A stretch of DNA of 64,000 nt, from NCBI GenBank assembly GCA_048939015.1, contig JBHLPW010000004.1, positions 50,663 to 114,662 on the forward strand, given 5' to 3'. Shown here in pieces: positions 25,012 through 28,136 of the stretch (position 1 is the stretch's first letter; each line of letters opens with the position of its first letter). The translations under genes were made by a program, and so were the position numbers. This DNA comes from Promethearchaeota archaeon (GTDB lineage Archaea; Asgardarchaeota; Lokiarchaeia; Sigyniarchaeales; SOKP01). A model generated the notes under the pieces. The model saw only the letters and a program-made list of their open reading frames with translations, made no database searches and was not told where the DNA came from.

Positions 25012-25084
25012 TGATTAACACAAAATTTATTCAATATTAATTAAGGTTATATTTAATAGTTTAAAAACTTAATTTTAGAAGAGA

Positions 25085-25091
25085 TAAAAAA
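25085..25091 (-). terminator. Oligo-T tract after the 5S precursor, a candidate archaeal terminator
   Basis: T6 run on the minus strand just past the processing stem; such runs are common in this AT-rich DNA. Confidence 0.4.
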
Positions 25092-25101
25092 GTAGACGAC
25101 A

Positions 25102-25286
25102 TATAACCACATAAAAAAGGCGTGACCGGGTATTTTCCTTGTATGCCATGACCGTAAGCTAACTTACAGTTTGTAGTTTCCCATAAACCGTAATTACAGT
25201 ACTATCTACAACGCTAAACAAGTTTAACTTCCGGGTTCGGATGGTTCCAGCGCCATAGCGAATTGCTATTGGTTCATGTGGTTATA
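25102..25286 (-). other. Precursor processing stem and bulge-helix junction enclosing the permuted 5S
   Basis: 14-bp stem UAUAACCACAUGAA (25286-25273) / UUUAUGUGGUUAUA (25115-25102); leader hairpin AUAGC-AAUUC-GCUAU; GGCG-CUGG-AAC pairs with CCGG-UCA-CGCC. Confidence 0.75.
25124..25244 (-). rRNA. rrf: 5S rRNA gene, circularly permuted (3' part 25244-25163, UUAG linker 25162-25159, 5' part 25158-25124)
   Basis: Minus strand carries the conserved CCGAACCCGGAAGUUAA. Helix I ACUGUAAG/CUUACGGU, helix II ACAAG/CUUGU, helix III ACCCGG/CCGGAAGU, helix V UUGUAG/CUACAA, loop E AGUA/GAA, helix IV CUGUAA/UUAUGG. Confidence 0.9.
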
Positions 25287-25321
25287 AACGCTAGTGTTAA
25301 CCATTATATAAGGTCGGTTAT

Positions 25322-25329
25322 TTTATAAG
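25322..25329 (-). promoter_or_regulatory. Candidate TATA box for the 5S precursor
   Basis: CTTATAAA about 35 nt upstream of the outer stem; a second candidate CTTATATAA lies at 25304-25312. Confidence 0.35.
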
Positions 25330-25427
25330 AAAATACCTACTTATATGGTTAATAGTAAATAGGAATAATACAAGCTATTAAAAAAAGTTTTCGGCTTGAG
25401 ACATAAAATTTAAAAGAATTAGTTAAA

Positions 25428-26009: not shown

Positions 26010-28136
26010 TTAGTTTTTGCTTAAAAATTGCGCGTACCTTTTAAGACCAATATATATAAAGAAAATAGAAATTCCTCCCAAAAATATAATCATAACAATA
26101 GAGAGGGGAATTAAATAATCAATCATTGTTTGAGGGATTGAAAAAAAGAATTCAGTATTATAAATTACATTAGTATTATTTGCATAATCTCTTAAAACTA
26201 TAAAATAAGAATATTTACCAGGTTTTAGTTTCTCAATTGTTATTTGAAACAAATCATTGTTTTCTTCAATAATATTTGATGATCCATAATAATTATAATC
26301 GCTAAAATTACTTTTAGAATAACAGATGTATGTAGATTCAATCCCAGATTTATTTTCTTGAACTTGAATATTAAAAGTTGCTAAGACAGAAGTTTTAGGA
26401 TTTTTTGGGCAGCATTCTACACTAATAACTTCTGGCAATGTATTATCTGGCAGAGCTGTAAAATTAAAGTAAGAAGGAACTAAATTATGACCTGTAATCG
26501 ATACATTATAATCCTCATATTCTTCATTTGGAATACGAAACTTCACTAAACCATCTTCATCTGCATATGTGGTAAAATATTTTTCCCCAGATCCTTGAAT
26601 ATGAACTCGTGCAAAGGGAACGACTTTATCATCACTATCTTTTATTATCACTGAGACTAATTCGCCTTCATATATATTCTCAATAAACGGATTTAGCGCT
26701 GATTTAGGTGTATTTGTATAAATGTCAACTTCAGGATCTCCTAAAAGGCAATAGGTAAGGAGTTGCTTACGTTCAAAATCAAAATATGTTGCGGTTTCCC
26801 CTCTGTTAAAATAATCGCTATTTATATATGCTAATTTTGAATCATATAGCGCTTTACCTTGTTGAAACTTTTTATTTAAATAAAACTCTTGCCAAAAAAG
26901 TTTTGCATTTCCACGATTTAATTTTTCAAGATTGTAATCATCTAATAAATACCAAGTTACACGTAATCCTCCAATTGCACCAATGGCTCCACCTTTAGTT
27001 CGCTTAATTAATATTTCACCTATACTATTATCAGTAGTAGTATCATAACTTGAAGTTGAGCAAGCATCTAAGTAAACTAGAGAAGGTTTATCATCATTTG
27101 AACTTATAATAGCATCTGATGATGTATAACCTGCCCGTGATGGATTTCTGAAATAACTTGTTGGGAGACCATGTCCTGCCATTAATACTGTAGAATATCC
27201 ATCATTAAAATAGGTACGTAGTACTGCTTGAGTGAGATTACCAGCTTCTTCTATTAAATGAGTATATTGTAAGGATGTATCTATGTAGTTTTCAACAATA
27301 TAACTAGTTAAAAAACTCTCATATTCTCCGTTAGGATCTTCTCCACTAGGATAATCAGAAATTCCTCCTGCAAGTAACATTCTATGCATCCAATTACCTA
27401 TTTCTGGATTAGACTCGTATTTCAAAGTTTTATTTACCATTATTTCCAGTTCAAGTGCATTATTCGCTGGAAATCTCCCAACATATACTTCAGGATCCCA
27501 TGATATCTCATCTAAGCCATATAAATTATCCAGAGGAGATTCCCCCCATTCACCATCTTGATCACTATCCCATGTACCATCAAGATCGGCGTAATAATAA
27601 TCAGTAGGTTTATATTCATTATCTCCAACTGTTTCAGTTCTTCCATCCCCGTATCTATCAACATCTGGATTGTATACATATCGAATAGGGATTAAATCAT
27701 CCTGAGCATCGCCTGCTAATAATACCCATTGAATATTTTCAGTTTCATAATATGATTTAATCATATTCCTAATTTTTTCAGCATCATCAACACCCTCATA
27801 TAAACTGAAATTACTCAAAATAATTGTTTTAACTCCTTTTTCATTTTTCCATTCCATTAATGGTTTAACAGCATCAATAAAATCAGTTTTATTTGGTGTT
27901 ATAATTAACATCTCAATTTTAGGATCATACCAGAGTTCATTTAAGTGAACATAATCTATTTCTGGTAAAAATGACAAATCTACACTCAAATATCCATTAG
28001 ATGTCTCAATCGATTCTGAAGGAGTTCTCGTGTTTAAAAATATAGAATTGTGATAAAAGTTAACATTAATGATAGGGATGAAAATCAATACTAAAAGAAT
28101 TAAGTAGATAAATTTTTTAAGAGAAAGCCTAACCAT
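26010..28136 (-). CDS. Peptidase C25 (gingipain-like) surface protease, membrane-anchored
   Basis: WVLLAGD, TDYYYADLDG, VYVGRFP, catalytic AGHG and ACS, LLGDP; hydrophobic segments at both termini. Confidence 0.88.
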   Translation of the reverse strand: MVRLSLKKFIYLILLVLIFIPIINVNFYHNSIFLNTRTPSESIETSNGYLSVDLSFLPEIDYVHLNELWYDPKIEMLIITPNKTDFIDAVKPLMEWKNEKGVKTIILSNFSLYEGVDDAEKIRNMIKSYYETENIQWVLLAGDAQDDLIPIRYVYNPDVDRYGDGRTETVGDNEYKPTDYYYADLDGTWDSDQDGEWGESPLDNLYGLDEISWDPEVYVGRFPANNALELEIMVNKTLKYESNPEIGNWMHRMLLAGGISDYPSGEDPNGEYESFLTSYIVENYIDTSLQYTHLIEEAGNLTQAVLRTYFNDGYSTVLMAGHGLPTSYFRNPSRAGYTSSDAIISSNDDKPSLVYLDACSTSSYDTTTDNSIGEILIKRTKGGAIGAIGGLRVTWYLLDDYNLEKLNRGNAKLFWQEFYLNKKFQQGKALYDSKLAYINSDYFNRGETATYFDFERKQLLTYCLLGDPEVDIYTNTPKSALNPFIENIYEGELVSVIIKDSDDKVVPFARVHIQGSGEKYFTTYADEDGLVKFRIPNEEYEDYNVSITGHNLVPSYFNFTALPDNTLPEVISVECCPKNPKTSVLATFNIQVQENKSGIESTYICYSKSNFSDYNYYGSSNIIEENNDLFQITIEKLKPGKYSYFIVLRDYANNTNVIYNTEFFFSIPQTMIDYLIPLSIVMIIFLGGISIFFIYIGLKRYAQFLSKN

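What the first reader, a model, noticed from the sequence alone, without database searches (positions are those of the whole stretch)
25151..25170. Mature 5S may remain a covalently closed 121-nt circle
Seen: only 4 nt (UUAG) link the helix I strands ACUGUAAG and CUUACGGU, forming a tetraloop-capped hairpin with no evident spacer to remove. Inference: after ligation in loop C the product is a 121-nt circle of normal 5S size that might enter the ribosome unopened, like the circular SRP RNA of Thermoproteus.
Basis: inference. Interest (0 to 1): 0.75.

Follow-up and report, generated by a model that had tools for sequence, protein, structure and literature searches.

The report
Back-to-front 5S rRNA gene making rings
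This Asgard archaeon encodes its only 5S ribosomal RNA with the back half first, between tRNA-splicing cut signals; environmental RNA contains exactly the predicted 121-base ring with the 4-base helix I cap intact, so the ribosome may carry a circular 5S, but that last step is not yet shown.

Summary
The hairpin is real: ACUGUAAG-UUAG-CUUACGGU on the minus strand at 25170-25151. It is helix I of a circularly permuted 5S rRNA gene, the only 5S candidate in this 4.86-Mb Asgard (Promethearchaeota) genome.

[quoted passage not shown] Cutting after the second base of each bulge predicts a ring of exactly 121 nt (25244-25124). RNA contigs from four metatranscriptomes (three studies) cover exactly that stretch. 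They join 25244 to 25124 with nothing between and run unbroken through the UUAG loop.

Across 50 homologues, 47 have a 4-nt cap, mostly UUCG-type. Helix I shows compensatory changes.

- **Shown:** the permuted gene, the BHB motif, the ligation, and ring RNA with the loop intact.
- **Not shown:** that the ring, rather than a re-opened linear form, sits in the ribosome. I put that at about 0.6.

This scan has already reported permuted, ring-forming 5S genes on other Asgard DNA (at least 93 genomes). None turned up in the papers I could search.

New here:
- two breakpoint classes occur within one genus;
- relatives carry 30-nt BHB introns inside their 5S genes.

The parts
25304..25324 (-). BRE/TATA-like promoter element (AAAAUAACCGACCUUAUAUAA), about 20-25 nt upstream of the leader arm
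   Evidence: Sequence; nearly invariant across the genus in the alignment. Promoter function is inferred, not tested.
25276..25285 (-). Leader arm AUAACCACAU, complementary to the trailer arm; forms the outer closing helix of the precursor
   Evidence: Sequence; conserved in both breakpoint classes.
25255..25269 (-). Small leader hairpin AUAGC-AAUUC-GCUAU. It is discarded with the leader.
   Evidence: Sequence; kept in relatives with changed stem letters (GUAGC/GCUAC and others).
25247..25254 (-). 5' strand of the BHB motif: outer helix GGCG (25254-25251) and central 4-bp helix strand CUGG (25250-25247)
   Evidence: Pairs with CGCC (25122-25119) and CCGG (25129-26); found by the BHB scan.
25244..25246 (-). 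5' bulge AAC; cut between 25245 and 25244
   Evidence: The RNA join begins exactly at 25244.
25124..25244 (-). The 121-nt 5S rRNA ring. Gene order is loop C 3' part, helix III 3' strand, helix II 3' strand, helices V/IV, helix I hairpin, helix II 5' strand, helix III 5' strand.
   Evidence: RNA contigs cover exactly this stretch and wrap round. Permuted model R1 scores 117.9 bits against 27.9 bits for linear RF00001. Covariation. Colinear with canonical 5S once rotated.
25151..25170 (-). Helix I hairpin (the finding): ACUGUAAG / UUAG loop (25162-25159) / CUUACGGU
   Evidence: RNA contigs run through it unbroken.
25119..25129 (-). 3' strand of the BHB motif: CCGG (25129-26, also the helix III 5' strand), bulge UCA (25125-23, cut between 25124 and 25123), outer helix CGCC (25122-19)
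   Evidence: the RNA join ends exactly at 25124.
25113..25118 (-). U6 tract in the trailer, between the BHB and the trailer arm. It may act as an early terminator.
   Evidence: Sequence; not conserved as a U run in relatives. Function not tested.
25103..25112 (-). Trailer arm AUGUGGUUAU, complementary to the leader arm
   Evidence: Sequence; conserved.

Best explanation
The 20-nt hairpin is helix I of a circularly permuted 5S rRNA gene on the minus strand. The gene is transcribed as leader, 3' part of 5S, helix I hairpin, 5' part of 5S, trailer. Leader and trailer fold into a bulge-helix-bulge motif: central helix CUGG/CCGG, bulges AAC and UCA, outer helix GGCG/CGCC. The tRNA-splicing endonuclease cuts after the second base of each bulge, and RtcB joins the new ends. 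This rebuilds loop C (..ACCCGGUC+CCAUCCGAAC..) and yields a covalently closed 121-nt ring. Shown here: the permuted gene order, the BHB motif, the enzyme genes, the exact ligation junction in RNA, and RNA that runs through the UUAG cap. Inferred: the ring is not re-opened, and this closed form, with helix I capped by a 4-nt U-N-N-G loop where linear 5S has free ends, is what assembles into the large ribosomal subunit.
For: - **Only 5S candidate.** This is the sole 5S-like locus in the 94.9%-complete genome, and it scores only 27.9 bits as a linear 5S.
- **Permuted model fits.** Model R1 finds exactly one locus per genome in 24 of 25 family genomes, at 87-122 bits.
- **Fold supported by covariation.** 91.6% of cells are paired, 17 of 27 pairs have compensatory changes, and 0 of 500 shuffles reach this. 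Helix I is 100% paired.
- **Junction restores a normal 5S.** The BHB cuts give the same helix III/loop C sequence that class B relatives encode contiguously. The rotated ring aligns colinearly with canonical 5S of the sister family, with 76-82 identical columns of 118.
- **Enzymes present.** The genome has two EndA paralogues and RtcB.
- **RNA evidence.** Six contigs from 4 metatranscriptomes (3 studies) cover only 25124-25244 and join 25244 to 25124 with no extra letters. Four of the six are 150-151 nt, one ring plus about 30 nt (a 30-nt overlap is what I expect from memory of an assembly built on 31-letter words), and the two X20 contigs are 143 nt (ring plus 22). They pass through the loop. 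One carries the loop variant UUUG, as in relatives.
- **Staying closed: loop conservation.** The cap is 4 nt in 47 of 50 homologues from 8 families with GC 34-64%. Within the family, U1 and G4 are invariant (UUCG 20, UUAG 10, UUUG 7, UACG 2, UCCG 2, UAUG 1). By contrast, the linkers of permuted tRNA genes, which are excised, vary from 1 to 74 bp (PMC3978253).
- **Staying closed: helix I and contig shape.** Helix I is 8 bp (about -7 kcal/mol) against 9-10 bp (-9.4 and -14.7) in the linear 5S of the sister family. Contigs stay ring-shaped even at mean depth 5.5-9.7, and none ends at the loop or reaches leader or trailer.
- **Precedents.** Ring SRP RNA (PMC4731332), circular 23S in ribosomes (PMC12918454), and viable E. 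coli with joined native 5S ends (PMC7283268).
Against: - No RNA ends, amounts or ribosome association could be measured. The RNA data are assembled contigs, which hide starts, ends and relative abundance.
- Ring intermediates that are later re-opened are the rule for permuted tRNAs and for most archaeal 16S/23S rRNAs.
- One relative (G062) has a 35-nt insert in the helix I cap that is not a BHB intron. It could be an excised spacer rather than an expansion.
- Thermodynamic folding of the ring is not better than shuffles (z about -1), so the fold rests on comparison, not energy.
- A stable tetraloop could be selected only to help the precursor fold.
- An earlier later-check in this scan priced 'the closed ring is the ribosome's 5S' at 35/100 for another genome.
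Confidence: 0.6

Rival explanations
1. The 121-nt ring is a real but transient intermediate. An unidentified endonuclease then opens or removes the UUAG loop, giving an ordinary linear 5S of about 117-121 nt with ends at helix I. This is how permuted tRNAs are matured.
For: Permuted tRNA rings are re-opened at the acceptor stem (PMC3978253). 16S and 23S rings are usually re-linearised. The G062 relative has a 35-nt non-intron insert exactly at this loop, which would be harmless if the linker is discarded. Contigs cannot exclude a dominant linear form.
Against: The linker is fixed at 4 nt with invariant U1 and G4 in 42 of 43 family members, and is 4 nt in 47 of 50 overall. An excised spacer should drift in length, as tRNA linkers do (1-74 bp). 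No tRNA-like or other known processing signal sits there. Opened, helix I would be a weak 8-bp duplex. Loop-spanning words persist in ring contigs of depth 5.5-9.7, while no contig reaches leader or trailer.
Confidence: 0.25
2. Both forms coexist, or the ring is opened somewhere other than helix I. Ribosomes would then carry a mixture of closed and nicked 5S, or a linear molecule permuted at another site.
For: Pyrococcus 23S is circularised and then re-opened elsewhere by excision of H98 (PMC7758197). Relatives carry 30-nt BHB introns in loops C and D, so other sites on this RNA are cut.
Against: In this genome loops C and D carry no insert. The contigs are closed rings with no second break or skipped part. 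Intron cuts in relatives restore the intron-less sequence and so imply re-ligation.
Confidence: 0.1
3. The ends are cut but not ligated in the functional molecule. The ribosomal 5S would be a linear, permuted RNA with its ends in loop C, like the permuted mitochondrial 5S of brown algae, and the ring would be a side product.
For: Brown-algal mitochondrial 5S is permuted in the final product without ligation (PMC4267664).
Against: The junction is present in RNA from all four runs at exactly the BHB sites. Two different breakpoint classes both restore the same conserved loop C/helix III sequence only after joining. RtcB is present. Loop C is among the most conserved parts of 5S.
Confidence: 0.04
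4. The locus is a chance hairpin beside a decayed 5S pseudogene, and the real 5S gene lies in an unassembled part of the genome.
For: The hairpin alone is no rarer than chance. The linear Rfam score is below the gathering threshold. The genome is 94.9% complete.
Against: The locus is conserved as a single copy in 24 of 25 family genomes, several of them 100% complete or single-contig, with compensatory changes. No canonical 5S was found in the family genomes sampled, apart from one probable contaminant in G076. The RNA is expressed and ligated.
Confidence: 0.01

Closest known systems
Permuted, circular SRP RNA of Thermoproteus tenax / T. uzoniensis (Plagens et al. 2015, PMC4731332)
   Same: The 3' part is encoded before the 5' part. 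Leader and trailer form a BHB motif cut by the tRNA-splicing endonuclease. Ligation restores a conserved apical loop, and the ring is the mature, functional RNA.
   Different: It is a different RNA (SRP, not a ribosomal component) in a few hyperthermophilic Thermoproteus species. Its ring state was backed by northern blots and protein binding. Here only the junction and ring-shaped contigs are shown, the host is a low-GC (about 30%) Asgard lineage from sediment and wetland samples, and the arrangement spans a whole family and more.
Circularly permuted tRNA genes (Cyanidioschyzon merolae, Thermofilum pendens; Soma 2014, PMC3978253)
   Same: Permuted gene order, a BHB at the junction, and a ring formed by the splicing machinery. 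Some also carry BHB introns.
   Different: tRNA rings are intermediates. [quoted passage not shown] The 5S linker is a fixed 4-nt U-N-N-G loop with no known processing signal.
Circular or circularly permuted 23S rRNA in archaeal ribosomes (PMC12918454; Pyrococcus furiosus, PMC7758197)
   Same: BHB-dependent circularisation of a ribosomal RNA, with the joined form retained in ribosomes.
   Different: Those genes are not permuted; the ring joins the natural ends. PMC12918454 states that circularisation involves 16S and 23S 'but not 5S rRNAs'. Here the gene itself is permuted, and the natural ends are joined in the DNA.
Engineered circularly permuted 5S rRNA in E. coli (Huang et al. 2020, PMC7283268)
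   Same: The native 5S ends are connected and new ends opened in loop C or D, and the ribosomes work. Loop C is also the natural breakpoint here.
   Different: It is artificial, the cp5S is tethered into 23S rather than closed into a free ring, and it is bacterial.
Permuted mitochondrial 5S rRNA of brown algae (Valach et al. 2014, PMC4267664)
   Same: Helix I is replaced by a closed hairpin, so the molecule's ends lie elsewhere.
   Different: The final RNA stays linear and permuted, with ends at the alpha/gamma junction, no BHB and no ligation.
Low-level circular 5S species in Sulfolobus and Halobacterium (Danan et al. 2012, PMC3326292)
   Same: 5S-derived circular RNA detected by RNA-seq in archaea.
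   Different: These are minor species from ordinary linear genes. They were not validated by RT-PCR and may be degradation steps. Circularisation is not needed to build the molecule.

Membership tests
5S rRNA (Rfam RF00001) | Scores at or above the family's gathering threshold (38 bits) as a linear molecule | tested here: not met
   27.9 bits at 25161-25273(-), with helix I and II pairs broken. This is expected if the gene is permuted.
5S rRNA (Rfam RF00001) | Three-way junction with helices I, II, IV and V supported by covariation | tested here: met
   In the encoded (permuted) order, 27 pairs give 91.6% paired cells, 17 pairs have changes on both sides, and 0 of 500 shuffles reach this. Slid controls give 33-43%.
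5S rRNA (Rfam RF00001) | Conserved loop motifs and colinearity with bona fide 5S | tested here: met
   The ring rotated to start at helix I aligns end to end with canonical 5S of two sister-family genomes (76 and 82 identical columns of 118), including loop C across the junction.
5S rRNA (Rfam RF00001) | Universal, essential gene: present in each genome | tested here: met
   It is the only candidate in this genome. There is exactly one R1 match in 24 of 25 family genomes. No canonical 5S was found in the family genomes sampled, apart from one probable contaminant.
BHB-dependent circularly permuted RNA genes (permuted tRNA, Thermoproteus SRP RNA) | 3' part encoded upstream of 5' part, with native ends joined in the DNA | tested here: met
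BHB-dependent circularly permuted RNA genes (permuted tRNA, Thermoproteus SRP RNA) | Leader and trailer form a bulge-helix-bulge: a 4-bp helix between two 3-nt bulges on opposite strands | tested here: met
   CUGG/CCGG with bulges AAC and UCA and outer helix GGCG/CGCC. The same motif type appears at the class B breakpoint and at 30-nt introns in relatives.
BHB-dependent circularly permuted RNA genes (permuted tRNA, Thermoproteus SRP RNA) | Splicing endonuclease and RtcB-type ligase encoded | tested here: met
   Two EndA paralogues with N-terminal and catalytic domains (104.9 and 72.6 bits) and RtcB (570 bits).
BHB-dependent circularly permuted RNA genes (permuted tRNA, Thermoproteus SRP RNA) | Ligated junction present in RNA at the predicted cut sites | tested here: met
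   The join 25244->25124 with no letters between is reported in X15, X20 and X18. In X16 the contig's two loose ends are the wrap-around sequence. That is 4 runs from 3 studies.
BHB-dependent circularly permuted RNA genes (permuted tRNA, Thermoproteus SRP RNA) | Cleavage of the motif by the organism's endonuclease in vitro | not testable with these tools
   Needs recombinant enzyme and substrate.
Mature covalently closed functional RNA (as Thermoproteus SRP RNA) | The ring is the steady-state, functional species: exonuclease-resistant, without ends, bound to its partners | not testable with these tools
   Only assembled contigs were available. They are ring-shaped and span the loop but give no ends, amounts or ribosome association.
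Ring intermediates re-opened at the linker (permuted tRNA type) | Linker of free length and sequence, flanked by a recognisable processing signal (RNase P / tRNase Z substrate) | tested here: not met
   The linker is 4 nt in 47 of 50 homologues, with U1 and G4 invariant in the family. No tRNA was found in the window.
Permuted linear 5S (brown-algal mitochondria) | Final RNA is linear and permuted, with no ligation | tested here: not met
   The ligated junction is present in RNA.

The most novel reading that the evidence does not exclude
Ribosomes of this Asgard family, and of other Asgard lineages with the same gene layout, contain a covalently closed circular 5S rRNA whose helix I ends in a 4-nt tetraloop. 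It would be the first natural 5S rRNA without ends, made by the tRNA-splicing machinery from a back-to-front gene.
Probability: 0.6. Interest if true: 0.85.

Novelty: new variant of a known kind. Interest (0 to 1): 0.77.

Why it matters
5S rRNA is universal, and its gene was thought easy to find in all archaea. Here it is invisible to standard annotation because it is encoded back to front.
- **Annotation.** This explains 'missing' 5S genes in many Asgard genomes. The permuted covariance model built here finds them at about 100 bits.
- **Biology.** A ring 5S would be a new kind of ribosomal component in close archaeal relatives of eukaryotes. It would extend the moonlighting of the tRNA-splicing machinery from tRNA, SRP RNA and 16S/23S rRNA to 5S.
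- **Evolution.** The sister family, which includes complete 4.4-Mb and 6.0-Mb genomes, has an ordinary linear 5S. Two breakpoint positions coexist within one genus. The lineage therefore offers a natural experiment on how essential RNA genes are permuted and possibly un-permuted.
- **Testability.** The claim can be tested directly with RNase R, northern blots, end mapping or cryo-EM on enrichment cultures.

Tried and rejected
- **Rfam at gathering threshold** on the whole window found nothing. ARAGORN found no tRNA.
- **Hairpin rarity.** 8-bp/4-nt hairpins are as common as chance (75 against 75.8), so the hairpin alone proves nothing.
- **Thermodynamic folding of the ring.** The MFE of -21.9 kcal/mol gives z of about -1 against mononucleotide shuffles and does not reproduce the 5S fold. 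It is uninformative for this AT-rich RNA.
- **The look-up of encoding contigs** for the neighbouring gene, tried to name the organism, found nothing on record. The phylum came from atlas taxa instead.
- **Loss of RNase W/FAU-1 (DUF402), a nuclease linked to pre-5S processing.** Locally the pattern is striking: 0 of 37 in the family outside genus g13, against 14 of 14 in the sister family with linear 5S. Across the phylum it fails. Families without a canonical 5S hit keep DUF402: f10 5/5, f17 4/4, f19 5/5, f21 5/6, f22 6/7 and f23 3/3 (the permuted model itself matched only one genome each in f10 and f21). Family f14 has canonical 5S in 17/19 but DUF402 in 0/19. I rejected this as evidence.
- **The 35-nt insert in the helix I cap of G062 as a BHB intron.** No register restores the tetraloop.
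- **Tandem weak RF00001 hits** in some relatives are the linear model matching each half of one permuted gene, not tandem genes.
- **RNA limits.** The single read-laying run had only assembled contigs available. RNA ends, per-base depth and a DNA control run could not be examined.

Full report
**Observation.** On the minus strand the window reads ACUGUAAG (25170-25163), UUAG (25162-25159) and CUUACGGU (25158-25151). A hairpin of this size is not remarkable by itself. The window holds 75 such hairpins on both strands, against 75.8 in shuffled sequence. Its meaning comes from what surrounds it.

**What it is.**
- Rfam finds nothing in the window at gathering thresholds.
- At relaxed thresholds it finds one weak 5S match at 25161-25273(-). 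The score is 27.9 bits against a cut-off of 38, with the helix I and II pairs broken.
- This is the only 5S-like match in the whole 4.86-Mb, 94.9%-complete genome.
- Read in the encoded order, the sequence is the 3' part of a 5S (loop C to the helix I 3' strand), the 4-nt loop, then the 5' part (helix I 5' strand to the helix III 5' strand).
- Rotated to start at helix I, the 121 nt align end to end with canonical linear 5S genes of the sister family. There are 76 and 82 identical columns of 118, against 54 and 60 when the ring is left opened at the cut site.

**Conservation and structure.**
- BLAST finds the locus in 23 of 24 other genomes of the genus.
- I aligned 29 distinct sequences from six genera of the family in their encoded order (A1). 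I counted pairs for helices II, V, IV and I.
- 91.6% of cells are paired, 17 of 27 pairs have changes on both sides, and none of 500 shuffles reaches any measure. Slid controls give 33-43% paired.
- Helix I is paired in all 232 cells, with compensatory changes at three pairs (for example GUAAG/CUUAC to GUGAG/CUCAC or GUAAA/UUUAC).
- A covariance model built from this alignment (R1) finds exactly one locus per genome in 24 of 25 family genomes, at 87-122 bits. It also matches five other families in the phylum search. In addition it matches one locus each from two further families of this order, f3 and f4.
- RF00001 scores the family loci at 33 bits or less.
- Canonical 5S genes are found in 12 of 14 sister-family genomes and in 49 of 151 genomes sampled across the phylum.
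- In this family the only canonical hit is an 80.8-bit gene in G076 that looks like a bacterial contaminant.
- Atlas taxa place a neighbouring protein in Promethearchaeota, the Asgard archaea.

**Processing signal.** Upstream of the 5S body lie the leader arm AUAACCACAU (25285-25276), a small hairpin (25269-25255), GGCG, CUGG and AAC. Downstream lie CCGG (also the helix III 5' strand), UCA, CGCC, a U6 tract and the trailer arm AUGUGGUUAU (25112-25103).
- CUGG/CCGG is a 4-bp helix flanked by 3-nt bulges on opposite strands, with GGCG/CGCC as the outer helix. This has the topology of a tRNA-intron bulge-helix-bulge motif.
- Cutting after the second bulge base gives a molecule running from 25244 to 25124, which is 121 nt. 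Joining its ends gives ..ACCCGGUC+CCAUCCGAACCCGG...
- That sequence is exactly what a second group of relatives encodes contiguously.
- The genome has two EndA paralogues, each with N-terminal and catalytic domains, and RtcB.

**RNA evidence.** I laid contigs of four metatranscriptome runs from three studies on 25040-25340.
- All six contigs cover 25124-25244 and nothing outside it.
- The join 25244->25124 ('goes back 121', no letters between) is reported in three runs. In the fourth, the contig's two loose ends are exactly the wrap-around sequences.
- Four of the six contigs are 150-151 nt, which is 120-121 nt plus 30. From memory, that is what a closed cycle gives in an assembly built on 31-letter words. 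The two X20 contigs are 143 nt (121 plus 22).
- All run unbroken through the helix I loop. Some carry the loop variant UUUG and other differences seen in relatives, so several species contribute.
- The flanks present in every genome assembly are missing, so the contigs cannot come from contaminating DNA.
- Ligation at the predicted sites is therefore shown, and RNA with both junction and loop intact exists.
- Contigs give no ends and no per-base depth. A weak quantitative hint remains: the cycles are closed even at mean depth 5.5-9.7, so loop-spanning words cannot be very rare, while no contig reaches leader or trailer.

In favour:
- Among 50 homologues aligned to R1, 47 have exactly 4 nt between the helix I strands.
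- Within the family, 42 of 43 read U-N-N-G (UUCG 20, UUAG 10, UUUG 7, UACG 2, UCCG 2, UAUG 1). Other families, with GC up to 64%, have UACG, UUCG, CUCG and UGCG.
- Excised linkers of permuted tRNA genes vary from 1 to 74 bp (PMC3978253). This one does not drift.
- Helix I is 8 bp (about -7 kcal/mol) against 9-10 bp (-9.4 and -14.7) in the linear sister-family 5S. The cap seems to replace terminal pairs.
- Precedents exist: the Thermoproteus SRP RNA ring (PMC4731332), circular 23S in ribosomes (PMC12918454), and E. coli ribosomes with connected native 5S ends (PMC7283268).

Against:
- No ends or ribosome association were measured.
- Re-opening is the rule for tRNA rings and for most 16S/23S rings.
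- One relative (G062) has a 35-nt GC-rich insert in this very loop that is not a BHB intron.

I put the closed ring as the ribosomal form at about 0.6, and re-opening at the loop at about 0.25.

**A test that failed.** RNase W/FAU-1 (DUF402) has been linked to pre-5S processing (PMC11602121; PMC7758197).
- It is not found in this genome or in 37 of 41 family genomes, but it is present in 14 of 14 sister-family genomes.
- Across the phylum the pattern breaks down. Families with no canonical 5S hit keep it, and family f14 with canonical 5S lacks it.
- It is no evidence either way.

**Other things seen.**
- *Two breakpoint classes.* Class A (this genome) breaks in loop C. Class B breaks after the helix III 3' strand (CCCGGAA|GUUAAAC), with central helix CCGG/CCGG and bulges AAG and AAA. 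The flanks are homologous, and a 16-nt segment (CCAUCCGAACCCGGAA) sits at one end of the gene or the other.
- *Introns.* Several relatives carry inserts of exactly 30 nt in loop D, helix IV or loop C. These form BHB motifs, and cutting them restores the intron-less sequence letter for letter. They are probable introns inside a 5S gene.

**Novelty.**
- Full-text searches found no permuted archaeal 5S gene and no functional circular 5S.
- PMC12918454 states that circularisation concerns 16S and 23S 'but not 5S rRNAs'.
- Danan et al. saw only minor 5S circles from normal genes.
- This scan has reported the same arrangement on other Asgard DNA (117 notes in at least 93 genomes). One later check priced the ribosomal-ring reading at 35/100.
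- My own tests raise the ring's existence to near certainty for this lineage and leave its final state open.

Noticed in passing
L017-L025 against window 25119-25254 (class A): Two permutation breakpoints occur within one genus, and again in genus g14. Class A breaks in loop C (..GGUC|CCAUCC..). Class B breaks after helix III (..CCCGGAA|GUUAAAC..). The flanks are homologous, and a 16-nt segment (CCAUCCGAACCCGGAA) sits at the 5' or the 3' end of the gene. The leader's C(C/U)GG pairs with either strand of the palindromic helix III stem.
   Followed up: partly
L013:1536-1671, L014:1536-1670, L016:1527-1661, L024:1503-1637, L196:1501-1636, L204:1501-1635: Inserts of exactly 30 nt lie in loop D or helix IV of the permuted 5S gene of relatives. 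They form full BHB motifs (for example H UUGC/GCGA, or UUAC/GUGA with covariation). Cutting them restores the intron-less sequence exactly. They are probable mini-introns in a 5S rRNA gene.
   Followed up: partly
L020, L022, L185, L186, L193 (just downstream of the R1 match): A 30-nt insert in loop C has a relaxed BHB (H UCCG/CGGG, bulges AAA or AAG and AAC, no outer helix). Removing it restores CCAUCCGAA|CCCGG. In L185 the inner helix falls below my filter.
   Followed up: partly
L200:1501-1636 (genome G062): The helix I cap carries a 35-nt GC-rich insert that folds as an extra hairpin with its own small loop. No BHB register restores the tetraloop. The genus mate G064 has a plain UUCG. It is either an expansion at the helix I tip or an excised spacer.
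   Followed up: partly
whole genomes, family f1 against f2: DUF402 (RNase W/FAU-1) was not found in this genome or in 37 of 41 family genomes. It is present only in genus g13, but in 14 of 14 sister-family genomes. Across the phylum there is no link to 5S layout.
   Followed up: yes
window 25113-25118 (-): A U6 run lies in the trailer between the BHB and the trailer arm. If it terminates transcription, many transcripts would lack the outer closing helix. It is not conserved as a U run in relatives.
   Followed up: no
window 26010-28136 (-): The neighbouring 708-aa ORF belongs to a peptidase C25 (gingipain-like) cluster found mostly in Promethearchaeota.
   Followed up: no
L030 (G076:C68:17163-17272): An 80.8-bit canonical 5S sits in one genus member that also has the permuted gene layout elsewhere in the family. 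Its sequence looks bacterial, so it is probably a contaminant contig.
   Followed up: partly
L034 (G032) and L032 (G055), sister family: The sister family's linear 5S genes occur as 2-3 nearby copies a few hundred bases apart, in complete 4.4-Mb and 6.0-Mb genomes. Whether linear order there is ancestral or a reversion from a permuted gene is open.
   Followed up: no
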